Source of the DNA: a virus
Taxonomy: Duplodnaviria; Heunggongvirae; Uroviricota; Caudoviricetes
Length of the DNA: 64,000 nt
Reading direction: 5' to 3' (one strand)
Virus record (IMG/VR): IMGVR_UViG_2703718772_000011
The position numbers and the translations under genes are program-made. The stretch's first letter is position 1. Each line of letters begins with the position of its first letter. The notes beneath the pieces are model-generated. The model was not told the DNA's origin. It ran no database searches and worked only from the letters and a program-made list of their open reading frames with translations. Below are positions 9,488 to 59,800 of the stretch, in pieces.

Positions 9488-9587
9488 GTGTTTTTCCTTT
9501 TTTGATGTGTTTAAACAAGTTGTTATCTTATGTGTTTAAACAAGGCTTACAAATCAAAGATAAGGTGGGGATATACCCCACCATATG

Positions 9588-17578: not shown

Positions 17579-17617
17579 GCCTCTAGCCGTTGCGGTTACT
17601 GGTCTGAAAGGGTGTTG

Positions 17618-17725
17618 CCATCCACTATGGAGAGCAAAGAAACCTCTGTAGAGAGCTGAATAACCGCTATGAAGAGTAAAACAACCACTCTGGAGAGCTG
17701 TATATATCCACTGTAGAGAGTAGAG
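17618..17725 (+). repeat. iteron array A: five direct repeats (consensus aaCCACTATAGAGAGc) at 21-22 bp period
   Basis: Repeats at 17621, 17643, 17663, 17685, 17707. Confidence 0.8.
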
Positions 17726-17879
17726 CACATTGTCTTTTATGGATAACTTAATGACTTAATTCTTCATTAACATACTGATATACATAGATATATTTTAAAC
17801 TCTACTCTTAGTCATGATTCTTATGTCCTTAAATATCCACAGAAGAGTAGAGTTACCTGTTCTTGAAATCCTCTGATTT

Positions 17880-17888
17880 TTATCCACA
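17880..17888 (+). promoter_or_regulatory. consensus DnaA box TTATCCACA
   Basis: Exact 9-mer; one-mismatch copy ATATCCACA at 17833..17841; inside AT-rich segment 17730..17880 followed by GATC sites at 17894, 17908, 17949, 17994. Confidence 0.55.
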
Positions 17889-18000
17889 GGCCCGATCCAG
17901 TAATTCAGATCACAAAGAGAACCAAAGAGACCCATAAAGACCCAATAAGATCCCCGCCCACCTCAAACCGTTGTGCCATCTGCCTTCAGACATGATCGAT

Positions 18001-18122
18001 ATCCACTATAGAGAGCGAATAATCCACTATAGGGAGCAAAGCAACCACTATAGAGAGGAGAAAAACCACTATAGACGGTAGGATAACCGCTGTGATGAGT
18101 GCTACTATCCACTGTAATCAGC
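18001..18122 (+). repeat. iteron array B: six direct repeats immediately upstream of the rep gene
   Basis: atccactatagagagc-type units at 18001, 18022, 18043, 18064, 18085, 18107. Confidence 0.8.
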
Positions 18123-18162
18123 AAAGGCCACCAAAGCCGTCGAATAACAAGAGACATTTGGA

Positions 18163-19218
18163 ATGAGCGAAAACGGCAATAAAAACATAGCGATCGTTGA
18201 AGCATTTTCAGAAACAGATAAAAAGACAGGCGAAGTTGTTACGTTGGTTCCTAACACTAATAACACTGTTCAGCCTGTTGCTTTGATGCGTCTGGGCCTC
18301 TTCGTTCCGACGCTGAAATCGACATCCAGAGGAAGAAAGGGGCAAATGGTCTCTATGGATGCCTCTGCTGAACTCAAACAGCTGTCTCTGGCAAAAGCCG
18401 AAGGGTACGAAGACATAAGGATCTCTGGCCTTCGGCTTGATATGGATAACGACTTTAAAACGTGGGTGGGAATAATCCACGCGTTTGCCAAACACAAGGT
18501 TGTTGGCGATACTGTCACGTTGCCGTTCGTTGAGTTTGTAAGGCTGTGTGGCATTCCGACCGCCAGGTCATCAGCGAAGTTACGCAAACGCCTGGACAGT
18601 TCGCTAAGCCGTATTGCCACAAATACCATCTCGTTCCGTAGCAAAGGCTCTGATGAGTTTTACGTAACGCATCTTGTGCAAACGGCAAAATATAGTGTCA
18701 AGCACGATACGGTCGAACTGAAAGCAGATCCCAAGATTTTCGAACTCTACCAGTTCGACAAAAAGGTTCTTCTGCAACTCCGGGCTATAAACGAACTCTC
18801 AAGAAAAGAATCCGCTCAGGCGCTTTATACTTTTATTGAAAGTTTGCCGCCTGATCCGGCACCAATATCACTAGCCCGTTTACGCGCCAGACTTAATCTG
18901 ACAAGTCGCACTATTACTCAGAATGCGACGGTAAGAAAGGCTATGGAACAGCTGCGAGAGATAGGATATCTCGATTACACGGAAGTTAAGCGCGGAAACT
19001 CGGTCTACTTCGTCATCCACTATAGGCGGCCAAAGTTACGCCAGGCACAAATATCAACAAAAATCGATAATGATGAGACGGAATATAGCCTCCCAGATGA
19101 GAATCAAGATGACATTATCGACGTTGTGCCTGACGAAAAAGAAGGCAAAATGGTCATGTTGAGTAAAGAAGAACTGGCGCTTCTCGAAGAGTTGCGCAAG
19201 GCAAAGACTCGCAAATAG
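18163..19218 (+). CDS. repA: iteron-binding replication initiator (RepA-like)
   Basis: Only plus-strand gene in this region, flanked on both sides by iteron arrays with origin-like elements upstream; P1 oriR-repA-incA-like layout. Assignment by context. Confidence 0.6.
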
Positions 19219-19219
19219 C

Positions 19220-19703
19220 CCAACCACTGTAGTTAGTAGTAAGGCTCACTATCCACTGTAGTGAGCCTTACTTATATCTGTAATTCGCTATCCACTATAG
19301 TGAGTATCGTTATCTGTTGATAACCACTGTAGGCAGTAGAATGCAAATACTGAATTAAATGTTAGTGATCACTAACACTGATGAAACAAGGGCTGCGAGG
19401 TTAGTGGTCACTGGGTATCTTGGAAAATTTACTGTCTATAGTGGTTGTTGTCGCCCTCATCTTTGAGCGTATCCACTGTGGCGAGTGGATATCCACTGAA
19501 AACAGCAAAGGCTTACTCACCATAGTGGATACCCGCTGGACATCTCACTCCAATACTCACCATAGTGGTTGTTTGATGCGAATGAAAGGCTGTCTACTCG
19601 CTACAGTGGTTAGCAGATATGTAGGAAGGTTTTGTTACTGACTACAGTGGATAATGAGCTGGATACGAATGCGGTGAGCAGACTACTCACCGCAGTGGTT
19701 GGT
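19220..19703. repeat. iteron array C: about 12 CCACTRTAG-type iterons in both orientations downstream of the rep gene
   Basis: Direct copies near 19225-19335 and inverted copies (CTAYAGTGG) near 19432-19703. Confidence 0.75.
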
Positions 19704-20801: not shown

Positions 20802-21227
20802 TCAATCTTCTTGTTTAGGGAAAAACTGTTCAATAACTCTGTCAACGGCTGTGTCTATATGGAGTAGATGCCACACAACCATATCTTTGCTTCCCATGCC
20901 TTGTGTGAATATCACGTCATACTTACGCCATGCGCAGTGGAACCAATATGCTGAGTCATCAATTGGTAAATCCTCTCCCGCCTCTTTGAAGTATTTCAGC
21001 AGCATTGCCTGCTCTGCCGTTGGCGTTGGACCTATTTCCTGAGCGTACATACGGATGAATCGCTGCCAGTCTGTCTCGTCGGGGGTTGGATCTGGTGGGG
21101 TCATTTCTGCGATAGCGTTTCGTAGCTGATGCGCCCAATCAGGTTCAGGAAAGCCTTTTGCTACTTCATCATCAATAACATCCAGAGCCACGTTTGCGGC
21201 ATCGTAGAGTTTCTTAATAGCTGTCAT
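20802..21227 (-). CDS. hypothetical protein (141 aa)
   Basis: ORF; TTAAACAAATTGTTT palindrome just upstream. Confidence 0.5.
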   Translation of the reverse strand: MTAIKKLYDAANVALDVIDDEVAKGFPEPDWAHQLRNAIAEMTPPDPTPDETDWQRFIRMYAQEIGPTPTAEQAMLLKYFKEAGEDLPIDDSAYWFHCAWRKYDVIFTQGMGSKDMVVWHLLHIDTAVDRVIEQFFPKQED

Positions 21228-21275
21228 GTTTTCTTATCCTTTTAAACAAATTGTTTTCTTAATAAGATAATTGCG

Positions 21276-22445: not shown

Positions 22446-24785
22446 TTACTCTTCTACTGACTCGGTGGGGTTGTCTTTTGCTCTTCGGTCGTCGATTGCC
22501 TGCAAAGCCGCAATGATTTCAGCCAGTGGCTTCTCCCGATACATCTCGACGATCTGCGATTTGGTGTATTTCTTGTCACCAATTTCAACTCGCCCGCTGG
22601 CGTTCTTTGGCAGGTATCCTTCTTCCAGCATGTACTCGACGAGCGATTCGATAACGTCGAGGCCACGAGTAGGATCGAAGTAGAATTTCCAGGTGCATTT
22701 GCCATACGGTGGTGCAACTTTGTTTTTGATGCATTCTGCGCCTACGTCCTGGCCGATCTTCTCTTTACCATCCTTCATCACCGATGCACCAAGACGGATA
22801 CGTACAGAAGCGTAGAACTTCGGTGAATCTCCACCTGGCGACGTAGTAGGGTCGCCAAACATTACACCGATTTTTGTGCGAACCTGATTCAAGAAGATGA
22901 TGCAGGCGTTGTATTTGCGTGCCCACAAAGCCAGAGTAGGGAAGTTCGCACTCGTCGCACGAGCCAGTGCCGTATTGTCGTTCATGTTTAGCTGATCTTT
23001 GTCTTTGGCAGTGCCTTCAGCCATCTTTTCGAACTTCTCGGCTTTGGAGTTCGGAACCATAGACGCAAGAGAGTCAGCCACGATACAGATTGGTGCTGAT
23101 TCGGGGATAAGCTCTTCATCACGAACCAATTTAAGTATTGTGCCGATCAACTCTACAGAGTCTTCGAAGGTATCTGGCTGCTTGTATACCCACTGACCGT
23201 CATCCTCATCTGCGTTCAGGCCATTGGCTACAGCCAGGCCAACGTCAAAACTGTTTTCATGATCGAGGAATACCGCCAGACCATCTTGTTTTTGAGCGGA
23301 GATCATCGCTGCTGTTGCAAGGAATGTGTTGTGGCTGATAATCCCGTTAGACCAGAAAGAGTGTGTTTCCGGCATCGCTACGTCGAACGTTGGCGCTTCA
23401 CCTTCCTCAATAGCCACGACTTCGTCGTAGAACAAGTTAGAGCCAATTACCGCTGCCAGTTGTGCAAACAGATGCTCGTTAAAACGATTCTTTCTGCCAA
23501 TGAAGGAGACATAGATTTCTCGCAGTTTGTCTATTCCGACACGATCGCCGCGGCCAATAACGTGGTCTACCAGAGCGTAGTCTTCACGGGTGGTCTTGGT
23601 GAGCGACTCGTAGAGTGATTTCACTAAGCCGCTGATGTGCGGAACATAGCCTGAGTAAGTGCGGTCAAAACCAATGTCCCGTTTGGTTGCCACTGATAAA
23701 CGTGCCGGAGATTCGAAACCAATCGTTGACAGAAAAAGGTCGTAATTAGAGCCACTGAATGACAGCCGGTAATATGTATTTTCATAACCCGCGACGTGTT
23801 TTTCAGAGATAGTTGACGTAATCCCCAGATTCAGGAGCATGAGGCGAATTTGCTGTAGCAGCAGCCCACTCGCGCTCACAACCTCAATGCAGCGACCATC
23901 ATTGACGTGGCATTCCAGCTCAAAGTAGCCGCGAAGGAATGCAATTTGAGCCTCGCTATTGGCGCGACGCACACTCAACGGAACCTGCTTGCCAGCAGCT
24001 TTCTCATACTCCAGACCATATTCTTTAAAAAGCAGCGAACGCACCTCTTTGCTAAACAGCACATGGTCTTCCGAGCCGTTATGTTTTCTCGTAACTGGCA
24101 TCTTGTCTGATACCAGCGAAATGAGGCGGTAGTACTCATCCTTGATGAAAGGATCTGTGTTAGAAAAATTCACTGAATTTTCAGAGGCCACGTATCCGTC
24201 AGCAATTAAATAGCCCATCAGTTTTGCGATATTGGCATCCAGGTGCTGATCGCCGAATTGATGTGTGCCAACCATTGAAGGAATCGTGTCGCCTACACTG
24301 ATTTTTTCAGCATGTCGCCAGACGACATTACCTAAGTCGTCAACCACACGGATTGGGTGACGGAACGTAGCCTCGATATAACCGCCTGATGCCAGCTTAA
24401 TACGCTTGAATTTGCGACGGTTGTTCCATGTCAGGTGTGAGGTCTTCTCTATCACGCCATTTTCATTGATGAGTCCAACGTTATGCTCTACATCGCGAGT
24501 AGTGCATGTCGCTTTGTACCCTTCAATCTCAAACAACTCTTTCACTGTTACCATTCCACGCTCCGTCAGCAGCATGGTGTCTGCGGTAACACATTTCCCC
24601 GCACTTGGAGGACCGAATACTTCGACGATACGACCACATGGGAAGCCGCCATCGTAACGACCAGAAATAGCTTTGTTTAACGGTGGAAAGCCTGTATCAA
24701 TCCAATGAGTTACTTTCTGAATTTCGTCGTTGCTACCGATTTTCTTTTTCAGAGCAAGTGCCAGTGCGGATTTTCCTTTTGCCAT
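22446..24785 (-). CDS. recA: RecA-family recombinase interrupted by an intein
   Basis: Exteins (about 357 aa) align with E. coli RecA (GRIVEVFGPPSAGK / TFLATAAMISAQ..., IIFLNQVRTKIGVMFGDPTTSPGGDSPKFYASVRIRLG). A 422-aa insert splits the Walker A loop. Confidence 0.85.
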   Translation of the reverse strand: MAKGKSALALALKKKIGSNDEIQKVTHWIDTGFPPLNKAISGRYDGGFPCGRIVEVFGPPSAGKCVTADTMLLTERGMVTVKELFEIEGYKATCTTRDVEHNVGLINENGVIEKTSHLTWNNRRKFKRIKLASGGYIEATFRHPIRVVDDLGNVVWRHAEKISVGDTIPSMVGTHQFGDQHLDANIAKLMGYLIADGYVASENSVNFSNTDPFIKDEYYRLISLVSDKMPVTRKHNGSEDHVLFSKEVRSLLFKEYGLEYEKAAGKQVPLSVRRANSEAQIAFLRGYFELECHVNDGRCIEVVSASGLLLQQIRLMLLNLGITSTISEKHVAGYENTYYRLSFSGSNYDLFLSTIGFESPARLSVATKRDIGFDRTYSGYVPHISGLVKSLYESLTKTTREDYALVDHVIGRGDRVGIDKLREIYVSFIGRKNRFNEHLFAQLAAVIGSNLFYDEVVAIEEGEAPTFDVAMPETHSFWSNGIISHNTFLATAAMISAQKQDGLAVFLDHENSFDVGLAVANGLNADEDDGQWVYKQPDTFEDSVELIGTILKLVRDEELIPESAPICIVADSLASMVPNSKAEKFEKMAEGTAKDKDQLNMNDNTALARATSANFPTLALWARKYNACIIFLNQVRTKIGVMFGDPTTSPGGDSPKFYASVRIRLGASVMKDGKEKIGQDVGAECIKNKVAPPYGKCTWKFYFDPTRGLDVIESLVEYMLEEGYLPKNASGRVEIGDKKYTKSQIVEMYREKPLAEIIAALQAIDDRRAKDNPTESVEE
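23328..24593 (-). mobile_element. intein with LAGLIDADG homing-endonuclease domain inside recA P-loop
   Basis: Starts with Cys right after GPPSAGK, ends His-Asn followed by Thr (+1); internal KLMGYLIADGYV and FLRGYFELECHVNDG blocks. Confidence 0.8.
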
Positions 24786-28884: not shown

Positions 28885-29068
28885 AGCATCGTTGGTTTGC
28901 AAGACAGACCTTATGTAAGCAGTTTTAGTAAAGCAGTCTCAGTTCAGTGTTATCTTCTGATTTCCCTTCTTCGTGAGTCTCCTCCTTAAGTGCCTAAGTA
29001 AGTCCCAATCTATACAGATCAAATTCTCGCCGCACTATGTGGCTCACAAAATTAAGAAGGTAATATCT

Positions 29069-29284
29069 ATGTCTAATAAAATGACTGGTTTAGTAAAATG
29101 GTTTAACTCTGATAAAGGCTTTGGCTTTATTTCTCCTGCTGATGGCAGTAAAGATGTTTTTGTACATTTTTCGGCAATTCAGAGTAATAATTTCCGCACT
29201 TTGGAAGAAGGCCAGCAGGTCGAATTCTCTATCGAGAATGGTGCTAAAGGCCCAGCAGCAGCAAATGTCGTTGCTCTAAGCTGA
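29069..29284 (+). CDS. cspA: cold-shock protein CspA family
   Basis: [38 protein letters not shown]..., near-identical in pattern to E. coli CspA; start at the internal Met preceded by AAGAAGG. Confidence 0.9.
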
Positions 29285-29559
29285 TTCAACGCTGATGATC
29301 CTCATTTCTACAATAACGAAGACGGTGTAAGCCTGAGTGGATAGATTTGTAGGATTGTACAAGTTGAATAAATTAGCATGGTAAGGCCATGCTAATTAAA
29401 TCGACACAACGGCCAGTTTATTCCATAAAAGTGAATTGCCCATTGTGGCGAAATGCGGGGTTGCCGCATGAATAGTCAAAGGCAGAAGCTAACTGCCGGC
29501 ATGGCAAAACAAAGTGCGTAAGAGGAGTGACTTCCTCAACAAGCGCCATAATTCTTTAT

Positions 29560-34618: not shown

Positions 34619-36727
34619 TCACTTTAAAATGATACGAGATAGTTCAGTAACTACAGATGAACCAAGACTATCAACGCTCGTTACCAGGGCATGATTTGAG
34701 TAAAATCTCTCCGGTGCGTCAGTCATGATGCCAATTGCCATCAAATCAATGTCAGTCTGCGTTTCAATTTGCTTCGCAACCGAACGCAAATGAGCGTCAA
34801 AACCTCTCCCAACAGCCCACGGCGCGCCATCGCTCAGAACAAGCATGATCTTCCTGTCCTCCAAGCGACCGGAAAATAACGATGCAAGGCTGGCTATGCT
34901 TTCACCATCCACGTTATTAAGAAGTGGGAATGTGTAGCCTACGCACCCCATACGTGAGCGAACTTCGCGAGAATTTACCTTTTCATTCCAATTTTTGATG
35001 ATAGGTAGCATTAAAGATTCAAAGCGAGAGAACTCATACTTGACAGCCTTAAGTTCTCCTGCCGCCATATGACTACCAAATGTAGTGAAGCCGGTGATAA
35101 TGTTGGGAACATTTATTCGATCAAGGGCATCGGCGATGGTATATGCACTTGCAAGAGCTAGTTTTATCGTTTCGCCACTCATTGAACCTGATAAATCAAT
35201 CACTTGCTGAACACAGGCGTTAACGGCTTTAGATTCTTCTTTTTTACGAAACACGCGATCATCATTCATTGCTAATCTGTAGATACTAGAACCATGAATG
35301 CGCCCCCGACGCTGGCCCGGTATAAACTGAACTCTGTTTCTGCTTGCTATTGCTCGCTCCAGGTCTTTTGCCAGCGTCGACGAAACACCTGACGAAAGAT
35401 GCTTTTCAATATATTTGTCGAAGAGCTGGTTGCCTTCAGGAACGATGCGATAGCGGCTGATTGGACATCCTCCTAAATCAATATCGGAGAATGTTTTAAT
35501 AAGCCGTTTGATATGGGCTTCTGCCTGATCAATCGAGCCGATGAAGTCGTATGAGCGATTGTATGGCCTGTATTCGCTTTTCGAGCTTTCTGTTAACTCG
35601 CTTTTAATCGTTTCGGATAGCGCATCTTCTGTCATGCCTCCGACTTCATCTTCCATGCTATCCAACTCCTCTAAAGCCTCTTCCAGACTCATTTTTGACG
35701 GAGTTGGAATGTCTGAAGAGCCGTCTTCTGTCGTTTTTCTTTTTTCGTGGTCAGCGGTTAATGATTCTGACGCCGCGTTATCAGAAGCATCAGAATCTGA
35801 TACCGCTTTATCATTTTCTGTATCATCGAATATTGTTTCTGATGATTCAGGATTATCTGAATCATCACTGTCATTATTATCATGTTTGTGCTTATTGTGT
35901 GATTCTGATTTGATAGATTTGTGATTATCTAACGCTGAGGGTGTCTCATGATCTTCGTTATCTTCATTGTTTTCTCCAGAGGCATCCGTCTGGTCAGCGT
36001 CTGAAGGATCGGAAGTTTTTCCCGGAGCTGACTCCTTACCTTTGCTTTCACTTTCAGTGTCTTTGAGGATCTTAGCTATGGTCGCAGCCACCTTTACACA
36101 ATCCTCGGTGCAAGACATGTTACGCACGGCCACATCGATACCATGTTCTTTTAATAATGAAATTGGTTTCTCAATGACAGGCCAATATTCATCCATGAAA
36201 TCTACGAACGGTGCTTGGCCATCCCAGGCTCTTACAACCGGACAGAGAAAGAAGTTTAGAAAAAGCGCGCGCTGATCTTTGCCACAATAAGCAATAGCCT
36301 CTGAAGCCTTTGGTTTAAAGACTTTTTCGATTATAAGGCGCTGAGTTGCCATCAGATTACGTCTTGTTCCGTTAAAGACCTGACCCATTTTTCGCTCGAT
36401 GAACACGTCTTCTAAGGCATTCCATAGCGACCAGGAAGGAACGCGTCCTTTTTCTCTCATTTTGTTGGACACACGAATATCGGTAAACAAAATGTGAGCA
36501 ACCTCATGATCGAGAAATCCGCGCACAGCATTCATCAATGCCGGTGTTGCGTTATCCGGGATTGATGGGATGTTTACGAGAATTGGCTCTCCATCATCGT
36601 TATAGCGTACATAAGCGTCGTCCCCTCGTTCTGCAACAGGGATGTTTTTACCTGAAAGGAGAGCGACTACTCGTTTTACACTGTCACGGAAGTCCTGAAC
36701 CTCTTTGATGGAACGTTTTTTAGACAT
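34619..36727 (-). CDS. von Willebrand factor A domain protein (CobT-like partner)
   Basis: C-terminal VWA with MIDAS motif DLSGSMSG; central about 150-aa acidic Ser/Asp-rich low-complexity insert. Confidence 0.7.
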   Translation of the reverse strand: MSKKRSIKEVQDFRDSVKRVVALLSGKNIPVAERGDDAYVRYNDDGEPILVNIPSIPDNATPALMNAVRGFLDHEVAHILFTDIRVSNKMREKGRVPSWSLWNALEDVFIERKMGQVFNGTRRNLMATQRLIIEKVFKPKASEAIAYCGKDQRALFLNFFLCPVVRAWDGQAPFVDFMDEYWPVIEKPISLLKEHGIDVAVRNMSCTEDCVKVAATIAKILKDTESESKGKESAPGKTSDPSDADQTDASGENNEDNEDHETPSALDNHKSIKSESHNKHKHDNNDSDDSDNPESSETIFDDTENDKAVSDSDASDNAASESLTADHEKRKTTEDGSSDIPTPSKMSLEEALEELDSMEDEVGGMTEDALSETIKSELTESSKSEYRPYNRSYDFIGSIDQAEAHIKRLIKTFSDIDLGGCPISRYRIVPEGNQLFDKYIEKHLSSGVSSTLAKDLERAIASRNRVQFIPGQRRGRIHGSSIYRLAMNDDRVFRKKEESKAVNACVQQVIDLSGSMSGETIKLALASAYTIADALDRINVPNIITGFTTFGSHMAAGELKAVKYEFSRFESLMLPIIKNWNEKVNSREVRSRMGCVGYTFPLLNNVDGESIASLASLFSGRLEDRKIMLVLSDGAPWAVGRGFDAHLRSVAKQIETQTDIDLMAIGIMTDAPERFYSNHALVTSVDSLGSSVVTELSRIILK

Positions 36728-36825
36728 GGCTAATCCTTTGTTATGAAAACAAATTATTTACTAGTGTGTTTAATGTAGCACTGCGCGAACAGGGAACTAA
36801 GCCATTCGCGCAGGGAGAAGAGGGG

Positions 36826-37038: not shown

Positions 37039-37289
37039 TCAATCAATCCATTCTAACTTATACTATGGTAAGGAATACTACTAAAATTTGTATCAATACT
37101 GAATACATTCATATCATATGCAAGTTGATTTTCTTACCTATTTTTGGCTAATTTTTCTCCGTGCAATGGCCTTTAACCGGTCTTTTAAGTGCCTATCGAA
37201 AAAAATGATAATAGCTTTACAACCCTAACCTTTGATGTAATATCGGTAAGCACTTACCAGAGAGAATTGAACGCGCAAAGGTTGTAACC

Positions 37290-37676
37290 ATGTCTGATAA
37301 CAAGATTGAATTTATAGAAAGTCGCTACGCTGCTTTTATCGCAGGGTTGATTGAATCCTCACCTATGAGCCAGGCCCAGATAGCCAAAACAATTGGGTAT
37401 AAAAACGCCAACAACCTTTCTTTAATTAAAAGCGGCAAAATTCCTTTGCCTATCGATAAGGTTCGTCCGCTGGCGCTGGCACTGGGTATTGAGCCAAGTC
37501 GTCTTATGATGATGGTGCTGGAAGAACGCCAACCCGAACTCGCAGCATTTTTATACAAAGAAGGCACTGCTCCTCTTAACGAGGACGAAAAACAGGTTCT
37601 TGCTGCATATAACGAGCGATTCGGTAAAGAGAAAGGCGCATCACAAAAGGTTGTTGAGGCCATAAAGTCTCTATGA
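37290..37676 (+). CDS. XRE-like helix-turn-helix transcriptional regulator
   Basis: HTH segment SQAQIAKTIGYKNANNLSLIKSGK; palindrome GGTAAGcacTTACC about 30 bp upstream of its start. Confidence 0.6.
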   Translation: MSDNKIEFIESRYAAFIAGLIESSPMSQAQIAKTIGYKNANNLSLIKSGKIPLPIDKVRPLALALGIEPSRLMMMVLEERQPELAAFLYKEGTAPLNEDEKQVLAAYNERFGKEKGASQKVVEAIKSL

Positions 37677-45769: not shown

Positions 45770-45807
45770 GTGTTTTTCTTTTGTGGTTTGGCAAAAGAAA
45801 AGTTGTT

Positions 45808-45840
45808 TCACCAATGAATCAAGCGTGGAGGTGTTCTCCA
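45808..45840 (+). terminator. hairpin with plus-strand T-run (gcgtggag-gtgtt-ctccacgc-ttatttttt)
   Basis: Between two minus-strand genes; may terminate antisense transcription. Confidence 0.4.
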
Positions 45841-45850
45841 CGCTTATTTT

Positions 45851-47191
45851 TTAGGTAACGTCTAAGATTCGCTCAATGAAGCGCATTTGTTCGAGGTTTT
45901 GTTTAACACGAATGCTGATCCCTCCCTGCTGGTTACGTGAACCAGCAAAGTAGAGACGAGCCTCTCCTTTCGCTTCTTCTTCTTCGGTTTTGTTGATCGT
46001 TATTACCAGGTCAGCAATACGTACTTTTTCGATGTTGTCGGCAGCGTGCATCATTGTGGCAACTTCTGACGCGCCACCTTCACGGTTTGTCTGCGATGCC
46101 GTGATCCCAGCAACGTTATGCTTGTCATAAAGAGCACGTAAATCGGTGTAGATACTACGAATGTTGGCGCGATCATCACGAAGGTCATAACTGGCACGCA
46201 TCAAATCTGCGTAGTCGACAACAACCATGTCAGGCACCATGCCGTTGGCTTTCATGCTGTTAAGCATACGGTCCAGATCTGCCGGTGACATACTTCCTGA
46301 CGGACGCTCAACCACCCACAAACTACCAATCCCCTTCGTGGCTCCCAACTCTGCCAACTTACGATGAACCTCATCGCGCCGTTCCACCAGCTTGGACATT
46401 TCTGTCTCCGACAATCTTGCATCAAAACGGTCGGATAAAATGGTGGTGTGAACCTCCAGCGAGAGATACAGAACATTGTAGCCAGCAAGCGTTGCGTTTA
46501 TGGAAAACTCACCCATTGCGGTCGATTTACCGGATTTAGCGAACCCCATGAAGAGCACCATTTCGCGCTTTGCCCAGCCTTTTTGGTACAGCAACCTATC
46601 GAGAAGAGGGAGTCCAGTTGTAATACTGTTTGGTACATACTCCTCTGAAGCCTCATATTCACGCGCTTTCAATCGCTCACTTGCGGAGGTGTAGTAGTCA
46701 TAGATTCCGGTCGCTTCGTTCGATCCAATCTGCTGAACCTTGGCCATGATTGCCATCGCCCCCTGAAAGTCGCCCTTCTCTTTCAGTTCAGCAGCCTTAA
46801 TCAGAGCATCATCAAACGCTACGCTTTTTGCGAAGGTTGATACCTGGTCAACCATGTACGAGGTATCGGACAATTTTTCTGCAAGAATGCGCTTAAACGC
46901 AGCAACAACATCGGCGAATAGTTCCTCACGGATAGTCTTATCGCGTTTCGCACGCTTAAGCATATCCAGAATCGCAGATGAAGAGGGCGCGCTCTTGTAC
47001 ATACGGTAATAGCCCGAAACCATATTAACCAATATGGCATTGGCCGCATTGGCAAATTGGCTAGGTACAACCAGATCTCCAGCACGAGTAAGAAACTCGT
47101 GATCACGACAAAAATAGGCCGTCAATCTGTTCTGAAAATCTTCATCAAACTCTTCGGACAGCCCGCGTCCTGTATGGCAAAGTTCGGTCAT
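45851..47191 (-). CDS. replicative DNA helicase (DnaB family)
   Basis: GLPLLDRLL, Walker A GFAKSGKST, DYADLM, ASQTNRE blocks. Confidence 0.8.
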   Translation of the reverse strand: MTELCHTGRGLSEEFDEDFQNRLTAYFCRDHEFLTRAGDLVVPSQFANAANAILVNMVSGYYRMYKSAPSSSAILDMLKRAKRDKTIREELFADVVAAFKRILAEKLSDTSYMVDQVSTFAKSVAFDDALIKAAELKEKGDFQGAMAIMAKVQQIGSNEATGIYDYYTSASERLKAREYEASEEYVPNSITTGLPLLDRLLYQKGWAKREMVLFMGFAKSGKSTAMGEFSINATLAGYNVLYLSLEVHTTILSDRFDARLSETEMSKLVERRDEVHRKLAELGATKGIGSLWVVERPSGSMSPADLDRMLNSMKANGMVPDMVVVDYADLMRASYDLRDDRANIRSIYTDLRALYDKHNVAGITASQTNREGGASEVATMMHAADNIEKVRIADLVITINKTEEEEAKGEARLYFAGSRNQQGGISIRVKQNLEQMRFIERILDVT

Positions 47192-47234
47192 GTGCTTTCC
47201 TTTGTTTTTTAAACAAATTGTTTTCTAGTATTAG

Positions 47235-47984
47235 TTAATTAGATAGGGGATCAATAAACCGCCGTGCTTCTTCCAGTTCTTCTGGAAAGTGGGCGGAAAT
47301 AAGGCGCTCTGGAACGATTTCCATTAGCCAGATAGCGGAGAAAATTGTGCGTATGCGCTTGCTGCGAGGGATGGTGCGCAAACGCTCCAGAATCCACTCA
47401 AAATAGCTTTCCTGAATCGGGTTGAACTGCATGTCTCCCATATGCTTAAAGCTAACAAGAGAGTCATCCAGACGGGTTGTTGCGCGTCTGGCTAATTTCT
47501 CTTCAAATATCTCAATCAGTTCTGGCTGCCACAAATGCTGTGGGCGCGGCAGCTTGTCCCACAGCCGTCGTGCAGCTGCGGAAAGAACGGTGGAGATAAA
47601 GTAGTCGTATGAGCAGCAATAGCGATCCGCAAACTGGCGTGCTTTCCATAGCGACGTTTTATTGGCAGTCGACAACTCCTGATAAGGCAGACGTTTTAAC
47701 CCGGTGGTGAACGGAGCTGTTTCAAAGTGTTCGCGACCGTGCGTCAGCATGATATTTGAGTACTGACGTTTGTATGCCTCCGTAAAAAGACAGGTGGCCA
47801 TGAGAGGATGCATGTCGCGGTAATCAAACCACTTCGTCTCGAAGAGTTCAGCCTCGTCTTTACAGCGCGACAAACCAATGTTTTCAGCGACCCACTTGTC
47901 CATAACAGCGGTATTCCACTCTGTCATGAAGTCGTACTGGTCGTTGTCGATGGTATCGAAAAAGATTTGGCTCATGTGGCTCAC
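47235..47984 (-). CDS. hypothetical protein (249 aa)
   Basis: ORF upstream of the helicase gene. Confidence 0.5.
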   Translation of the reverse strand: MSHMSQIFFDTIDNDQYDFMTEWNTAVMDKWVAENIGLSRCKDEAELFETKWFDYRDMHPLMATCLFTEAYKRQYSNIMLTHGREHFETAPFTTGLKRLPYQELSTANKTSLWKARQFADRYCCSYDYFISTVLSAAARRLWDKLPRPQHLWQPELIEIFEEKLARRATTRLDDSLVSFKHMGDMQFNPIQESYFEWILERLRTIPRSKRIRTIFSAIWLMEIVPERLISAHFPEELEEARRFIDPLSN

Positions 47985-48092
47985 CTGGTAGGTAGTTACT
48001 TACTTATCACAATGAGCGGATGATAGCGACTGGTGGCAGTTTTTGGAAGTGGAAACGGAAGGGAGTTGTTCTGGTGGTGTCTTTTTAAAAGA

Positions 48093-48147
48093 CCTGCTTC
48101 TGTATATATTTAATAAGTTACTTATTATTTATATATACAGAAGCAGG
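48093..48147. repeat. 17-bp perfect inverted repeat (cctgcttctgtatatat / atatatacagaagcagg) with 21-nt AT-rich loop, copy 2 of 2
   Basis: Arms match the element at 1716..1776; loop contains AATAAGTTACTTATT. Confidence 0.8.
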
Positions 48148-48258
48148 CATAACTTGTCGTCTTAGACGCCCAGAAGCTCTACACTTTGAGCCTGTTAAAT
48201 TGATTAAAAACTTATGTGTAAAATAGAACGCATTAGTCAGTAGCTAAGAGATGCAATA

Positions 48259-49026
48259 ATGGACGATTTATCGGTATACGCGAGATCATTGGATAAGGCT
48301 AAATACTATGTTTACTGTCTCTATGATACAGAAGACAAGATGAAAAGACCGTTTTACATAGGAAAAGGCAAATCGACTCGTTGTCTCGATCACATCAAGT
48401 ATCCCGATGACTCTCCCAAATCCATGCGGATCAAAGAACTTTTGGCTAATAAAAAATTAGGCATAGATATACTTCGTCATGGTATGGATGAAACCACAGC
48501 CAAACTTGTTGAGGCGACATGCATCGACCTTATGGGGGTCGGAGAGCTTACGAATAAGGTACGAGGAAGTGGTTCCATGATGGGCAGAATATCACTGGAC
48601 GCCTACCATCACTTAGTGCTGCAAGAGGAAACTGAAATTGCTCCTGAGCACGCCGGTCTTGCCTTCCTGCTAAACAGCACCTACAAGTCAGGAATGTCCG
48701 CTCTGGCATTATATGAAGCTACGCGTGGCGTATGGGCAAAGGTTCCAAGAGACGAGAATCTCAAATATGCCTACGCTACATATGGTGGGCTGATAATGGA
48801 AGTTTATCAGATTGAATGCTGGGTCAAAGCCGGTTCTCAGCAGTACTTTACAAGGGATATAGCTCTTGGCCCCGACACAAAACGTTATGAATTTGTTGGC
48901 AGAATAGCCGATGAGCATATTAGAAAACTGTATGTAGGCAAATTAATCAAGAAGCCACCAAGCTACGGTAGCCCTTTTGTGAAGGTTGGGGTGGTTAGGA
49001 CTGAACATAGTGTTAGCGCGGCATAA
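48259..49026 (+). CDS. GIY-YIG nuclease domain protein
   Basis: N-terminal YYVYCLYDTEDKMKRPFYIGKGKSTRCLDH fits the GIY-(x10-11)-YIG...R...H pattern. Confidence 0.6.
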   Translation: MDDLSVYARSLDKAKYYVYCLYDTEDKMKRPFYIGKGKSTRCLDHIKYPDDSPKSMRIKELLANKKLGIDILRHGMDETTAKLVEATCIDLMGVGELTNKVRGSGSMMGRISLDAYHHLVLQEETEIAPEHAGLAFLLNSTYKSGMSALALYEATRGVWAKVPRDENLKYAYATYGGLIMEVYQIECWVKAGSQQYFTRDIALGPDTKRYEFVGRIADEHIRKLYVGKLIKKPPSYGSPFVKVGVVRTEHSVSAA

Positions 49027-49078
49027 AGCTGACACTGTAGTTATGCATTGGCGCAATGTACGCGCCAATGCATGATTT

Positions 49079-49438
49079 TTAACCTTTCTTCATCAACTCT
49101 CGTTTGATTTCATCGGTACGCATCGTGACATCGGCAGCGGTGATCGCCTCATTCAATTTCACGATGTCCTCGATTTCCTGCGGTGACTTCTCTGCCAGAT
49201 GGAAAATGGCTGCTCGAATCACGTCAGAACGAGTGAACTTCTCGAAGCGAGGGATGAACTTCATCATCTCCAGCAGTTCGAAGTATTCGTCCTCCAGTGA
49301 CATTGTGCGGCTTTTAATTTTCTCTTTGCCACGAGTCGGGCGTCCCTGTGGTCTGACTGGTTGGCGCAAAGGAGTTGTGTTCTTAGCCGGTGCATCAGGC
49401 TCTTTGCGCTTTGCTAGGTCACCCATTTTCATGGACAT
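49079..49438 (-). CDS. putative partition adaptor / centromere-binding protein (ParG/ParB-like)
   Basis: Small basic protein immediately downstream of parA; assignment by context only. Confidence 0.4.
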   Translation of the reverse strand: MSMKMGDLAKRKEPDAPAKNTTPLRQPVRPQGRPTRGKEKIKSRTMSLEDEYFELLEMMKFIPRFEKFTRSDVIRAAIFHLAEKSPQEIEDIVKLNEAITAADVTMRTDEIKRELMKKG

Positions 49439-50106
49439 TATTCTTCTTCCTCCAGACTCAACAGATAATCTACAAATTCTTCAAACTCGGCTTCCGCCTT
49501 CTTGTCGCGTTCGCTACCGGTCATTTCAAAGATAGAACGACCTGACTCTTCCGCATCATCGTAGACGTTGCGGTTATATAGATTGACTGGCGCAGACTCG
49601 ATGCCGAACGTCTCGACAATCTCTTTAGCCGCCAGAATGCGAGACACTTGTGATGGCAAAGCCGGGCACTGGTTCATGACCGCGCGGACCTTCACTTTAT
49701 CGTTTACATTGCGAACATTGTCGATAATAGGATCGATGTCACGTAAAGATTTCAAATCACGACGCTTAGGACGCAGCGGGATAATGATAACGTCAGCCAT
49801 CAGCATCGCTTGTCGCTGAATTTCGGAGTCGAAGCCACCAGCATCTACCACTACAAACTCAGCTCTACCCTGAAGCGATTTTAGGTGCTTAATGATGTCA
49901 TCCTGAACGTATGCAAAAGGAATCAGCTCAAGGTCTTCGTTCTGTCGACGGTCTTCACACCAGCTCGTTGTCGTGCGCTGAATATCTATATCGGTAATAT
50001 AAACCTTCTTCTTCTTTTTGACTTTCAGGCAAACGGCAATTTGCTGGGCAACGGTGGATTTGCCAGGCCCGCCCTTTGTGCCGCCAACCACAAAGATCTT
50101 GGTCAT
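49438..50106 (-). CDS. parA: ParA/ParF-type partition ATPase
   Basis: Deviant Walker A GGTKGGPGKST; 222 aa small ParA. Confidence 0.85.
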   Translation of the reverse strand: MTKIFVVGGTKGGPGKSTVAQQIAVCLKVKKKKKVYITDIDIQRTTTSWCEDRRQNEDLELIPFAYVQDDIIKHLKSLQGRAEFVVVDAGGFDSEIQRQAMLMADVIIIPLRPKRRDLKSLRDIDPIIDNVRNVNDKVKVRAVMNQCPALPSQVSRILAAKEIVETFGIESAPVNLYNRNVYDDAEESGRSIFEMTGSERDKKAEAEFEEFVDYLLSLEEEE

Positions 50107-50424
50107 TGGAGAGTTCCCTTTGCGTATATAATTATCGTCTGAAACAACTTGTTTTCTTATATGTGATATAGCCTAAATGCCTACGGCTGCGGTGTAAAGG
50201 TTAAATGGTAGGTTGTGATTAACAATTGGCAATCATAGCTTGTATTTGTCTGTTGAAAAAAGTAACAATGACCTCTATATTACAAGTACGGTGATATGCC
50301 GTACACAATTTGATAATGCACACGTAATGGGCTATAGCCTTTTAAAGTAATTTTTGAGTCGAAAACTCAGTTTGAACAGAGGAGATTGATGGCCTTCCTT
50401 CATCACGGCCATCAGGAGGAATAC

Positions 50425-56891: not shown

Positions 56892-59800
56892 TCACAGACG
56901 GCCAATTCTTACTCGTAAGACGTTGTTATCGTCATAAACGTCAATCCGCTGACCATTTATAACCAATCGCCCATTGCCGCCGCTATTACCGTTGATCTCA
57001 AGCGTTCCATTTTTGCCGAACCGCCATCCAGATCTACCGCTAACAAAATTGGTAGATTGCAGATCGCCTACTTTTGCATTGGTGATTGTGCCATCCTTGA
57101 TATACGCTCCATTCATATAGGCGATACTGTTTTCGATAACAAATGGCGTTGTGATCTTCCCGTTAACAGAGTTGACCAAACCAAACCTGTCCGCCTGAAC
57201 CAAAAACTGAGATAGCCCAGTGGTGTCAATACCAAGCGCAATACCGGCAACATACTTCTGCCCTCCGCTCGTTGAAGTCTCCATTTTCAACGTCCACGCG
57301 GTTGACACTTTTTTGTTGGTATCAGCAATAGCTGTTGCCTGCTGTTGAATTGTCGCGGTATTTCCATCCACCTCTGCTTTCAGAGTATCGATTCGCCCAC
57401 TCAGAGCATTATCTGCCTGCGTTCTCGCTGTCGTTTCAGTTGTTACCGCCGCGGAAATGTTGGCTGCCGTTTGAGACTCTAAGTTTGTGATTTGAGTCGC
57501 CAGTGCCGCATCTTGCTCTGTACGCGTTTTCGTTTCGGTTGCTACAGCCGCTTTAATATCCTCTTTGTATTGAGAGGTCAGCTTGGTGATCTGAGACGAC
57601 AACGCCGAGTCAGCATCAGTTCGAGCCTGCGTTTCAACTGCAACGGCCGCACTAATATCTTTCGCAGTCTGTGCTTTTAAACTTGAAACCTCTTTTGTTA
57701 AAGCGGTATCACCATCTGCACGAGCCGTTGTTTCTCTGGCAAGAGATGCCTCAAGATCATTAGCTTTTGCTGTAAGAGACGTAATCTGAGTGGACAATGC
57801 ACTATCGGCATCAGTCCTTGCCTTTGTCTCTACAGCAACCGCTGCGGCAATATCAGTTCCGGTCTGTGCTCGCAGGCTGTTAATTTCTCGTGAGAGCGCC
57901 TGGTCAGCACTTGCCCTGGCCTCCTGCTCCTGAGTGATGGCAGCGGATATATCACCGTCAACCTTTGACTGAAGCTGGTTTATTTGTTTGGCTAACGCAG
58001 AGTCCCCGCTTGCTCGAGCCTCCTGCTCACTACGTATTGCAGCAGAAATATCATCATCAACCTTTGCCTGAAGTTGGGTGATCTGGCTTGCCAGAGCCGA
58101 ATCTTCCGTTGCTCGGGCTTCTTGCTCTTCCTTAATAGCTGCGACGATATCGTTGCTTACTTTCGACTCAAGCTGAGTGATCTGTGTCGTCAGAGCTTCA
58201 TCGGCAGATGTACGAGCCTCCTGCTCTGTACTAATCGCCGCGCTGATATCTCCTTCAAACTTAGATTGCAGCTGAGTGACACGCTTTGCCAACGCTTCAT
58301 CGCCATCGGCACGAGCGGTGGACTCTTCCAGAATACTGGCCTTAATGTCTTCGCCAATTTCTACGCGAATTTCCTCAACCTTCGTGGCCATTGCAGACAT
58401 ATCATCAGCAAAGGTTTTCTGTGTTGTTGCGATCTTCGCGTTATTGACCATCTGCTTGTGCTGGTCTTCATCTTGACGAAGAGCCAGGTCAATATTTGTT
58501 TTGGCTAACGCCTCAATGTTCGTAGTCAGTTCTGCACTGGCACGATCGACCTCTGCAACCGTCTTTTTCATTTCTTCAACGGCAGCGGAGCTTTCCTCTA
58601 CCGTTGACTGCAACACTTCCAGTTGTTTAGCGTTTGCAGCATCGCCTTCAACACGAGCCTCGCTTTCCTTAGCAATAAGAGCCGCCGCTTCATCTCTTGC
58701 AGCCTTTATTGCCTCGACTGTATTAGCGAGAGCTTTATCGTGTTCAGATACGGTGTTTTCGATTTCAACAATTGCAGCATCAGTAGCATCAATTTTTTCA
58801 AACGCTTCATTGACCTTGTCGATCGTTGCCGAAACCTCACCTTTAAGCTCGGTTTGTGCGTTCTCCAAAGCATCGCTACGCTCGTTGAATTTTATTTCAA
58901 AATCCGCGAGGTTATCGCTGAACTGCTTATCTAATTCAGCTATATCTTCCTTAACGTCGTTTACCGCCCCCTCCAAAGATTCGACGCTCTGGTTGATATG
59001 CTCATTTAACTCGTCAACTGCTTCTTGAGAGGCTTTGCTGTTGATGTCCTCAAGCAGAGCCTGACCAAGCTCGGAAGATGTAATTTTGCCAGTCAGGAAC
59101 GACAGTACATCGCGAGTTGTCGCCTCTGTACCCAAGTTTGAGTTCGGAGGACTTAACATACCTCGCTTGTTCGATGCTCGAACCCAGTAATACCACGTTT
59201 CGCTATCCCCAAGACCAGCATGTGTAAAGGTGGTGCTTGCAGACTCTGCGATCAGTTTCGCCGTATCCAGATTGTTGGTCTGGGATGCGTAAACATTAAT
59301 GTGATCAAGGTCTACCGAATCTGGATTAACCCAATTCAGTATCACATTACGATAGTCTCCAACGGCCGTTAATGACGTTGGGGCATCCGGCGGTGTCATT
59401 GTGCCCAACACCTGATAAACGGTACTGATAATCTCTGTTTTTTTACCGTTGAATGAAACCGCATACAGCTGGAAGTCGTAGCGTCCATTCTCCGCGACAT
59501 TAACGATTTCGTATTGCTCTTCGGTTACACGCGCCGATTGCCAGTTCGATACATTGTTTTCATCAGAACGTCGCCAACTGATCCAATACTCTGGAGATTT
59601 CCCTTCCCATGTTGCAGTCAGTTTTACTGACAGGTTGCCCGGGCTTGAGAGATAAGTCCCTTCAGTGATTTGTAGATTAGATGGCTTGGAGTAAGTTGGG
59701 TCCAATACCGTCGTATTCTGCGGGATCAGCGTTGCACCATTGTCGATTGCCTCATATTTAGACGGATTGTTCTCAACAGCGGTGATGTCAAAGCTACCCG

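What the first reader, a model, noticed from the sequence alone, without database searches (positions are those of the whole stretch)
47205..47225. Second palindromic motif TTAAACAA(A/G)TTGTTT placed 15-40 bp upstream of several start codons
Copies at 9511..9530 (nrdB), 21241..21260 (gene 20802..21227), 47208..47225 (helicase) and 50141..50160 (parA). The core AAACAA-TTGTTT is a perfect palindrome and is followed by the conserved initiation region. It suggests a second regulator-binding site or a conserved leader for a co-regulated gene class.
Basis: seen in the sequence. Interest (0 to 1): 0.5.

Follow-up and report, generated by a model that had tools for sequence, protein, structure and literature searches.

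The report
Second operator-like palindrome of a phage-plasmid
A 13-base palindrome (AAACAA-N-TTGTTT) sits at a fixed distance from promoter elements in front of a set of genes in an SSU5-type phage-plasmid and is conserved in relatives from E. coli, Salmonella, Klebsiella and Yersinia pestis, so it is most likely the DNA binding site of a still unidentified repressor that keeps those genes quiet.

Summary
The window is an SSU5/pHCM2-type E. coli phage-plasmid, with genes on the minus strand. AAACAANTTGTTT occurs five times at up to one mismatch (9513, 21244, 36747, 47211, 50142) against 0.47 expected. Each copy lies 16-35 nt upstream of a start codon (nrdB, a DUF7238 gene, a CobT-like gene, the DnaB-like helicase, parA).

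In a near-identical complete plasmid there are 16 copies, all intergenic. It is the top exact 6-N-6 palindrome in four diverged lineages. Orthologous sites are kept while flanks diverge, the central base is free, and mismatches are roughly mirror-symmetric.

Sites take two fixed registers relative to -10-like hexamers: 13 nt downstream (centre about +14) and 19 nt upstream (centre about -38). Paired sites are exactly 51 bp apart. Published lysogen RNA-seq of phage Cyrano shows nearly all these genes silent.

Best reading: an operator of a second repressor regulon. It is distinct from a TAGGTA-N6-TACCTA motif that appears tied to the integrase-linked XRE repressor.

The binding protein is unresolved. 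Candidates are the small partner protein of ParA (a guessed ribbon-helix-helix fold, not confirmed) and an FljA-family tandem-Sm protein acting on leader RNA. No literature describing the motif was found.

The parts
47211..47223 (-). Class-B palindrome AAACAATTTGTTT (exact), 19 nt upstream of the ATG (47191) of the DnaB-like helicase gene 45851..47191. It is preceded by the flank AGA and by a weak -10-like hexamer, TCTAAT, 14 nt upstream.
   Evidence: Orthologous site kept in SSU5, two Klebsiella lineages and Cyrano.
50142..50154 (-). Class-B palindrome AAACAAGTTGTTT (exact), 35 nt upstream of the ATG (50106) of the small ParA-type ATPase gene 49438..50106.
   Evidence: Conserved in SSU5, Kp and Kp2 (one mismatch) and absent in Moellerella.
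36747..36759 (-). Class-B palindrome AAATAATTTGTTT (one mismatch), 19 nt upstream of the ATG (36727) of the CobT-related gene 34619..36727.
   Evidence: Exact copies at the orthologous place in SSU5, Kp and pMT1.
21244..21256 (-). Class-B palindrome AAACAATTTGTTT (exact), 16 nt upstream of the ATG (21227) of gene 20802..21227 (DUF7238 family). It directly follows a terminator-like hairpin (GGCGTCCAGTTGGACGCC plus a T run).
   Evidence: Same site in Cyrano at 58595.
9513..9525 (-). Class-B palindrome TAACAACTTGTTT (one mismatch), 25 nt upstream of the nrdB ATG (9487).
   Evidence: Orthologous copies in SSU5 (70219), Kp (7490) and Cyrano (70326).
9530..9544 (-). Extra copy of the right half-site with its flank (TTGTTTAAACACAT on the gene strand), forming a direct repeat with 9505-9519.
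   Evidence: (sequence).
49079..49438 (-). Gene for the 119-aa partner of ParA, a candidate DNA-binding protein for the motif. The sequence pattern IKSRTMSLEDEYFELLEMM...FTRSDVIRAAIFHLAEK, preceded by a basic disordered tail, resembles ribbon-helix-helix centromere-binding proteins. The protein is 93% and 91% identical in SSU5 and Kp.
   Evidence: Expressed in the Cyrano lysogen (CYRAN_29, 89 against background 9.8). The fold assignment was NOT confirmed.
49438..50106 (-). Small Walker-type ParA (222 aa). Its operon is the only class-B-preceded unit clearly expressed in the lysogen.
45796..45808 (-). Degenerate copy (AAACAACTTTTCT, two mismatches) after a hairpin and 26 nt upstream of an ATG with the conserved initiation region, ahead of the primase gene. 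Statistically it is at chance level.

Best explanation
The motif is a dyad-symmetric DNA operator. It marks a second repressor-controlled regulon of this SSU5-type phage-plasmid.

Proposed mechanism:
- A dimeric (or dimer-of-dimers) DNA-binding protein encoded by the element binds AAACAA-N-TTGTTT.
- One position is just downstream of the transcription start of sigma-70-type promoters. The motif covers about +8 to +20, centre about +14, close to where lac O1 sits.
- The second position overlaps the -35 region, centre about -38.
- Where both positions are present they are exactly 51 bp apart, about five helical turns, which would allow cooperative binding.
- Binding blocks initiation or promoter escape. 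In the plasmid-prophage state this keeps quiet about a dozen small accessory 'early' genes, the promoters in front of the helicase, nrdB, CobT-like and TerB-like genes, and the leader of the terminase/late operon. It throttles the parA operon.

Shown:
- the motif, its enrichment and its intergenic position;
- its fixed registers relative to -10-like hexamers;
- mirror-symmetric tolerance to mismatch and a free central base;
- conservation in four lineages and in pMT1, and loss in a more distant lineage;
- low expression of the downstream genes in a lysogen.

Inferred:
- the transcription starts (from -10-like hexamers only);
- that a protein binds;
- the sign of regulation;
- the identity of the protein.

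My first candidate for the protein is the 119-aa ParA partner. In that case the sites would double as autoregulatory and partition sites, in the manner of omega of pSM19035 or KorB of RK2. This candidate carries well under half of the confidence given here.
For: Enrichment:
- 5 sites against 0.47 expected in the window.
- 16 against 0.88 in the complete relative pNT1F31, all in annotated intergenic gaps.
- It is the top exact 6-N-6 palindrome in Ec (8), SSU5 (11), Kp (11) and Kp2 (15), each against 0.01 expected.

Footprint:
- Orthologous sites upstream of the helicase, parA, CobT-like, nrdB, TerB and terS genes are kept while flanks diverge.

Symmetry:
- The central base is C21/A19/G18/T15 over 73 sites.
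- Mismatch counts at mirrored positions are 4/3, 4/5, 1/3 and 0/0.

Register:
- An upstream -10-like hexamer ends 13 nt before the motif in 18 of 32 cases, and 11-14 nt before it in 30 of 32.
- A downstream -10-like hexamer starts 19 nt after the motif in 14 of 17 cases.
- Paired sites are 51 bp apart in Ec, SSU5 (twice), Kp, Kp2 and Cyrano.

Expression in the Cyrano lysogen (background 9.8):
- terS 7.1, CobT-like 7.8, TciA/TerB 7.0, CYRAN_87 7.1, CYRAN_101 7.5.
- Promoters with only the upstream-type site: CYRAN_93 6.3 and CYRAN_108 5.7.
- These are silent even though the promoters carry GATAAT -10 boxes.
- Higher: parA operon 50-89, helicase 21.

The other palindrome class (TAGGTA-N6-TACCTA) has a core copy directly after the promoter of the XRE repressor gene (37216-37258). 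Class B therefore needs a different protein.

RNA-level alternatives are weak. The leaders show no consistent hairpin, with z scores from -1.95 to +0.8, and there is no Rfam family at the sites.
Against: - No transcription start site, footprint or binding assay exists. The +14 and -38 positions rest on -10-like hexamers only.
- Within the window itself these hexamers are weak (TCTAAT, TACATT, TAGGCT), and none was found for nrdB.
- The promoter modules of the accessory region are clearly paralogous, so part of the fixed spacing could be inherited and not selected.
- All lytic genes are silent in the lysogen, so the RNA-seq does not single out class-B genes.
- No repressor gene is identified.
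- Its putative DNA-contacting strand is nearly identical in the Moellerella element, which has no class-B palindrome.
- pMT1 keeps the sites but lacks this protein. pMT1 is too young for this to be decisive.
Confidence: 0.55

Rival explanations
1. The motif is an RNA operator. Transcribed in the 5' leader (AGAAAACAANUUGUUUAA, 10-35 nt before the AUG), it is bound by the element's FljA-family protein. That protein blocks ribosome binding and destabilises the mRNA, as Salmonella FljA does on the fliC leader.
For: - A full-length FljA-family gene (Pfam PF03614, E 5e-68) is encoded on the opposite strand in every lineage that has class B: Ec, SSU5, Kp, Kp2 and pMT1.
- The one lineage without class B (Moellerella) has only a short, very divergent copy (34 bits).
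- The gene is kept in elements of non-flagellate Klebsiella and Y. pestis, which argues for a role inside the element (that these hosts are non-flagellate is general knowledge).
- FljA-like regulators are reported to prevent fliC mRNA translation (PMC2652032, citing Bonifield & Hughes 2003 and Yamamoto & Kutsukake 2006).
- 49 of 73 sites have a Shine-Dalgarno sequence plus start codon within 60 nt, mostly 10-24 nt.
- The gene is expressed in the lysogen at a low to moderate level.
- The Salmonella/Citrobacter fliC leader shares the 8-mer CAAGTTGT.
Against: - The upstream-type copies (14 of 17 at exactly 19 nt before a -10 hexamer, often right after a terminator hairpin) lie outside the transcript of the promoter they belong to.
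- Single-strand RNA recognition gives no reason for exact mirror symmetry, a free central base or mirror-symmetric mismatch tolerance.
- The hairpin is not stable or consistent.
- C-to-T changes (wobble-compatible) and G-to-A changes (not compatible) are equally frequent, 4 against 3.
- By my estimate the fliC 8-mer match is not significant.
Confidence: 0.2
2. The motif is an intrinsic promoter or leader element with no dedicated regulator. The A-rich then U-rich initial transcribed sequence would tune promoter escape or act as an A/U-rich translation enhancer, and its copies are alike because the promoter modules are duplicates.
For: - The accessory-region promoters are obvious paralogues, sharing GCCTTTT...GATAAT-aACACCAaCAAGA.
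- The Moellerella element keeps the same promoter skeleton and the left, A-rich half (TTAAGAAAAACAAC) without the right half.
- The motif abuts a conserved strong initiation region.
- From memory, the phage T7 gene 10 leader (AAATAATTTTGTTTAAC) is a similar A/U-rich enhancer.
Against: - This does not explain exact dyad symmetry or copies at -38.
- It does not explain conservation at non-paralogous promoters (helicase, parA, CobT-like, nrdB, terS) across lineages with 40-70% protein identity.
- Genes with such 'strong' modules are silent in the lysogen.
Confidence: 0.1
3. The motif is a binding site for a host (enterobacterial) transcription factor that the element exploits.
For: The motif is identical in elements living in Escherichia, Salmonella, Klebsiella and Yersinia. 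A conserved host protein would explain that without any element-encoded factor.
Against: - I know of no enterobacterial regulator with this consensus. KdgR, PurR, Cra and IHF consensus sequences, recalled from memory, differ in spacing or bases.
- The Moellerella element, also in Enterobacterales, lacks the motif.
- Outside SSU5-like contigs, only chance hits in AT-rich coding DNA were found in viral contigs.
- The host chromosome was not scanned.
Confidence: 0.07

Closest known systems
Dispersed C1 operators of phage-plasmid P1 (from memory: 17-bp operators at many promoters, including the one for the ban helicase)
   Same: It is a plasmid-prophage with many copies of one operator scattered over about 100 kb. 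The copies sit at promoters of replication and accessory genes, including a DnaB-type helicase, and those genes are silent in lysogeny.
   Different: - P1 operators are asymmetric 17-mers, whereas this is a 13-bp perfect palindrome.
- There is no sequence or protein homology.
- This element appears to run two separate operator classes (A and B).
- The class-B binding protein is unknown.
Omega of pSM19035, ParG of TP228 and KorB/KorA of RK2: partition or plasmid global repressors
   Same: - A site sits in the promoter of a small ParA operon whose second gene is a small basic protein.
- The half-sites are 7 bp apart centre to centre, like omega heptads in inverted orientation.
- One palindrome is spread over many promoters of the replicon, like the KorB OB sites.
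   Different: - There is only one palindrome at parA, not a cluster of repeats.
- The ribbon-helix-helix fold of the partner is not confirmed.
- Most sites are at phage early-type genes.
Dispersed SopB centromere sites of the linear phage-plasmid N15 (from memory: Grigoriev & Lobocka 2001; Ravin & Lane 1999)
   Same: In a phage-plasmid, palindromic sites for a partition protein lie scattered in regions that control phage genes.
   Different: N15 uses a type Ia SopAB system with four sites. Here there are 16-25 sites, a type Ib-like ParA, and no evidence yet that the partition protein binds them.
lac O1-type operators centred near +11
   Same: The inferred position is just downstream of the start site (motif about +8 to +20), with a second site on the same helical face upstream.
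   Different: The family is unrelated and the positions here are inferred, not mapped.
FljA and the fliC 5' untranslated region (Salmonella flagellar phase variation)
   Same: An FljA-family protein is encoded by the element, and the target lies in a leader just upstream of the Shine-Dalgarno sequence.
   Different: FljA acts on RNA. The class-B copies at -38 and the dyad symmetry point to DNA. Only an 8-mer is shared with the fliC leader.

Membership tests
Promoter-proximal operator of a phage/plasmid repressor | Dyad-symmetric site with an unconstrained centre and symmetric tolerance to change | tested here: met
   The central base is C21/A19/G18/T15. Mirrored mismatch counts are 4/3, 4/5, 1/3 and 0/0 over 73 sites.
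Promoter-proximal operator of a phage/plasmid repressor | Overlaps the core promoter or transcription start | tested here: inconclusive
   There are fixed registers to -10-like hexamers: 13 nt downstream in 18 of 32 cases and 19 nt upstream in 14 of 17. No start site is mapped, and the hexamers at the five window sites are weak.
Promoter-proximal operator of a phage/plasmid repressor | Conserved at orthologous promoters of relatives while flanks diverge | tested here: met
Promoter-proximal operator of a phage/plasmid repressor | Downstream genes repressed when the repressor is present | tested here: inconclusive
   In the Cyrano lysogen RNA-seq, class-B genes are at background (5-13 against 9.8), except parA at 50-89 and the helicase at 21. 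All lytic genes are silent, however, so the result is not specific.
Promoter-proximal operator of a phage/plasmid repressor | Cognate DNA-binding protein identified | not testable with these tools
   Candidates can only be ranked.
Type Ib partition operator/centromere (ParG/omega type) | Site(s) immediately upstream of a small ParA operon | tested here: met
   50142-50154, 35 nt from the parA ATG.
Type Ib partition operator/centromere (ParG/omega type) | Array of several clustered short repeats at the par locus | tested here: not met
   There is a single palindrome and no repeat array in 48950-50420.
Type Ib partition operator/centromere (ParG/omega type) | Ribbon-helix-helix centromere-binding protein encoded after ParA | tested here: inconclusive
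FljA-type translational operator in a 5' leader | FljA-family protein encoded by the same element | tested here: met
   PF03614 E 5e-68. About 38% identity to chromosomal FljA. The gene lies outside the window.
FljA-type translational operator in a 5' leader | All sites lie in transcribed leaders next to a ribosome-binding site | tested here: not met
   49 of 73 sites do. The 14-17 upstream-type sites lie before the -10 hexamer of their promoter.
Structured cis-regulatory RNA | Stable or conserved secondary structure, or a match to a known family | tested here: not met
   Fold z scores are -1.95 to +0.8 and structures are inconsistent. There is no Rfam match at the sites.

The most novel reading that the evidence does not exclude
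The element silences its genes with two separate repressor systems. The second uses a protein not normally thought of as a prophage repressor. One possibility is that the ParA partner protein binds about 20 dispersed class-B sites, so that plasmid partition and silencing of phage early, replication and late-leader genes are coupled. The other is that the tandem-Sm FljA homologue acts on class-B leaders, which would make the Salmonella phase-variation repressor FljA a domesticated phage-plasmid regulator.
Probability: 0.25. Interest if true: 0.75.

Novelty: new member of a known kind. Interest (0 to 1): 0.5.

Why it matters
SSU5/pHCM2-type phage-plasmids are common. At least 700 PLSDB plasmids match this region. 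They include pHCM2 of S. Typhi, much of pMT1 of Y. pestis, and carriers of resistance genes such as dfrA51.

I found no description of how this family is regulated. The motif defines a testable regulon of 16-25 promoters per genome. It separates that regulon from the one tied to the integrase-linked XRE repressor. It also gives exact sequences for footprinting, reporter mutagenesis and engineering, for example de-repressing or locking the lytic programme.

If the binding protein turns out to be the partition protein or the FljA homologue, the result would link plasmid maintenance or flagellar phase variation to prophage control.

Tried and rejected
1. RNA hairpin or leader structure. The five window leaders fold no better than shuffles and do not fold alike. 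There is no Rfam family at the sites.

2. Motif outside this phage family. A scan of viral contigs for AGAAAACAANTTGTTT gave 120 loci. 47 were SSU5-like. The rest were single or chance hits in AT-rich coding DNA. This gave no help in naming the binding protein.

3. XRE repressor (37290..37676) as the binding protein. It is absent from SSU5, which has the motif, and present in Moellerella, which lacks it. Its own promoter carries the other motif, class A.

4. HicB-like regulator. It is absent from both Klebsiella lineages.

6. Link to the fliC leader. The leader was fetched. Only an 8-mer is shared, which I estimate is not significant. The primary FljA papers are not held.

7. Activation from the -38 site. 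Genes with only that site are silent in Cyrano (CYRAN_93, CYRAN_108). The expressed S24 peptidase gene is preceded directly by such a site in pNT1F31, but in Cyrano it lies about 3.5 kb downstream of the site.

8. Literature. No paper in the library contains the 13-mers. Nothing was found on SSU5 regulation beyond the LF82/Cyrano study. A 2026 preprint on phage-plasmid heteroresistance could not be opened.

9. Two-mismatch copies in the window (876, 45796, 53007) are at chance level.

Full report
**What the window is**

The region 45800-50300 is 99% identical to E. coli phage-plasmids such as pNT1F31-113kb, Escherichia phages CMS-2020a, PhiR41_1 and Cyrano, and about 83% identical to Salmonella phage SSU5. 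Nearly all genes are on the minus strand. I fetched these complete relatives:
- pNT1F31 ('Ec');
- SSU5;
- Klebsiella phage pJN2-26 ('Kp');
- a more divergent Klebsiella element, NZ_CP101792 ('Kp2');
- Y. pestis pMT1;
- a Moellerella element ('Mw');
- most of Cyrano.

**Checking the observation**

- AAACAANTTGTTT occurs at 21244, 47211 and 50142 exactly, and at 9513 and 36747 with one mismatch. That is 5 sites against 0.47 expected, and no shuffle reached 5.
- Two-mismatch hits add nothing beyond chance.

**The motif genome-wide and in relatives**

- The complete pNT1F31 record has 16 copies at up to one mismatch, against 0.88 in Markov shuffles. All fall in annotated intergenic gaps.
- An unbiased count of all exact 6-N(0-8)-6 palindromes puts AAACAA-N1-TTGTTT first in Ec (8), SSU5 (11), Kp (11) and Kp2 (15), each against about 0.01 expected.
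- Orthologous copies stand upstream of the helicase, parA, CobT-like, nrdB, TerB-like and terS genes and a dozen small accessory genes.
- pMT1 keeps six copies.
- Alignments of the helicase and parA upstream regions show AGAAAACAA-N-TTGTTTAA conserved while neighbouring bases diverge, most clearly in Kp2.
- The Moellerella element has the same gene order and the same promoter skeleton, with the A-rich left half, but no palindrome anywhere.

**Anatomy**

Aligning all sites shows two positional types.

In the first type, the order is a -10-like hexamer (often GATAAT), then aACACCAaCAAGA, then the palindrome, then a Shine-Dalgarno sequence and ATG. The hexamer ends 13 nt before the motif in 18 of 32 cases and 11-14 nt before it in 30 of 32. 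With a start 7 nt after the hexamer, the motif covers about +8 to +20.

In the second type, the palindrome comes first, often directly after a terminator-like hairpin. It is followed by TCTACCTTTT and a -10-like hexamer that starts exactly 19 nt after the motif in 14 of 17 cases (centre about -38).

Where a promoter has both types, they are exactly 51 bp apart in every lineage.

Over 73 sites the central base is evenly distributed and mismatches fall about equally on mirrored positions. These are the marks of a dimer binding double-stranded DNA.

At the five window sites the -10-like hexamers are weaker (TCTAAT, TACATT, TAGGCT), and none was found for nrdB. In the window the promoter assignment is therefore less secure than in the accessory region.

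**RNA-level readings**

The five leaders do not share a hairpin and fold no better than shuffles. No Rfam family matches at the sites. C-to-T and G-to-A changes at the paired positions are equally common, and no excess of wobble-compatible changes is seen.

**Expression**

The LF82 study gives per-gene RNA-seq for the Cyrano lysogen, with a background median of 9.8 (PMC9928086 S1 Table). I mapped Cyrano's 16 sites.

| Gene or operon | Expression |
|---|---|
| terS | 7.1 |
| CobT-like | 7.8 |
| TciA/TerB | 7.0 |
| CYRAN_87 | 7.1 |
| CYRAN_101 | 7.5 |
| CYRAN_105/106 | about 12 |
| CYRAN_93 (upstream-type site only) | 6.3 |
| CYRAN_108 (upstream-type site only) | 5.7 |
| nrdB | 12.9 |
| helicase | 21 (gene before it: 6.2) |
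| parA operon | 50-89 |

Promoters with good -10 boxes that are silent in the lysogen fit repression. Since all lytic genes are silent, this is supportive and not specific. Cyrano is induced 39-fold by ciprofloxacin.

**A second motif and what it implies**

A different palindrome, TAGGTA-N6-TACCTA (class A), occurs 18-20 times per genome. It sits 5-7 nt upstream of extended -10 boxes (TGTAAGAAT and similar) in front of structural, lysis and replication genes. In Kp2 it appears as the variant TAAGTA-N6-TACTTA.

The XRE-type repressor gene next to the integrase (37290..37676, + strand; the 'putative repressor' CYRAN_45, expressed in the lysogen) has a promoter TTTACA-16-TAATAT at 37216-37243. 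This is followed immediately by the class-A core GGTAAGCACTTACC at 37245-37258. That looks like autoregulation, so class A is probably this repressor's operator and class B needs another protein. SSU5 lacks both the integrase and this repressor.

**Who binds class B**

This is not settled.

The XRE repressor is unlikely. It is absent from SSU5, which has the motif, and present in Moellerella, which lacks it. HicB is absent from both Klebsiella lineages.

Candidate 1: the 119-aa ParA partner.
- It is 93% and 91% identical in SSU5 and Kp and 52% in Kp2.
- It is expressed in the lysogen (89).
- Its operon carries a class-B site, as expected for an autoregulated type Ib partition protein.
- Its sequence reads like a ribbon-helix-helix protein with a basic tail.
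- The 7-bp half-site spacing matches inverted omega heptads (from memory).
- Against it: the fold could not be confirmed.
- Against it: there is no repeat array at the par locus.
- Against it: the putative DNA-facing strand is nearly unchanged in Moellerella, which has no palindrome.
- Against it: pMT1 lacks the protein.

Candidate 2: the FljA-family protein.
- It is present full-length in all class-B lineages. Moellerella has only a short, divergent form.
- Its model is two tandem Sm folds resembling Hfq and WYL domains.
- FljA-like regulators are reported to prevent fliC mRNA translation.
- This points to an RNA mechanism, which does not account for the sites at -38 or for the symmetry.
- The Salmonella fliC leader shares only CAAGTTGT with the motif.

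**Verdict**

The motif is real, highly non-random, conserved and positioned like an operator. I put 0.55 on a DNA operator of a second, element-encoded repressor regulon, 0.2 on an FljA-type RNA operator, 0.1 on an intrinsic promoter or leader element and 0.07 on a host factor.

I found no description of the motif in the searchable literature. It is a new member of a known kind of system: dispersed operators on a plasmid-prophage, as in P1, N15, RK2 and pSM19035.

Noticed in passing
It stands in front of structural, lysis and replication genes. It is conserved in SSU5, Kp, pMT1 and Moellerella, and appears as TAAGTA-N6-TACTTA in Kp2.
   Followed up: partly
window 37216-37258 (+), upstream of 37290..37676: The XRE-type repressor gene next to the integrase has a promoter TTTACA-16-TAATAT followed at once by the class-A core GGTAAGCACTTACC. 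This suggests that the repressor autoregulates and that class A is its operator. SSU5 lacks both this gene and the integrase, which may relate to its use as a lytic phage.
   Followed up: partly
L002:27971-28495 (+), outside the window: The FljA-family protein of the element is predicted to be two tandem Sm/Hfq-like domains with no helix-turn-helix. It is about 38% identical to chromosomal FljA. It is kept in elements of non-flagellate Klebsiella and Y. pestis.
   Followed up: partly
window 9483, 16516, 20742, 27082, 33102, 34519, 43234, 45765: A strongly conserved translation initiation region, ACAAAGGAAAAACACATG, is repeated in front of many genes (families D3, D5, D6).
   Followed up: no
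window 17615-19304, around ORF 18163..19218 (+): Iteron-like repeats (CCACTATAGAGAG, some at 21-bp spacing) flank the RepB/RepA-type replication initiator gene (families D9, D11, D13).
   Followed up: no
L002 about 20965-21002 (record 70965-71002), outside the window; SSU5 56-93: The terS/late-operon leader carries two class-B copies 25 bp apart, followed by a terminator-like hairpin (GAGCGC..GCGCTC plus a T run) before the start codon. This hints at attenuation or antitermination control of late genes. Kp and Kp2 each have one copy.
   Followed up: no
window 22446..24785 (-): The RecA-like recombinase gene is 779 codons here and is annotated as a LAGLIDADG homing endonuclease. It is about 358 codons in SSU5, pMT1 and Kp, and only about 290 residues align. 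This suggests an intein or homing-endonuclease insertion.
   Followed up: no
window 28891-29309 (+): There is an Rfam cspA thermoregulator match (187.6 bits) in front of a cspG-like cold-shock gene carried by the element.
   Followed up: no
L137:15350-15470 (Moellerella parA upstream): Where Ec has the palindrome, the Moellerella element has two direct repeats, AAATAACAAGGC, 20 bp apart, plus an AAGAAAACAAT. These share AACAA(G) with the class-B half-site, and the partner protein's putative DNA-facing strand is almost unchanged.
   Followed up: partly
window 36747-36759 and general: From memory, the class-B variant AAATAATTTGTTT differs by one T from the phage T7 gene 10 leader AAATAATTTTGTTTAAC used in pET vectors as a strong ribosome-binding region. 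This is probably coincidence but bears on the leader/enhancer rival.
   Followed up: no
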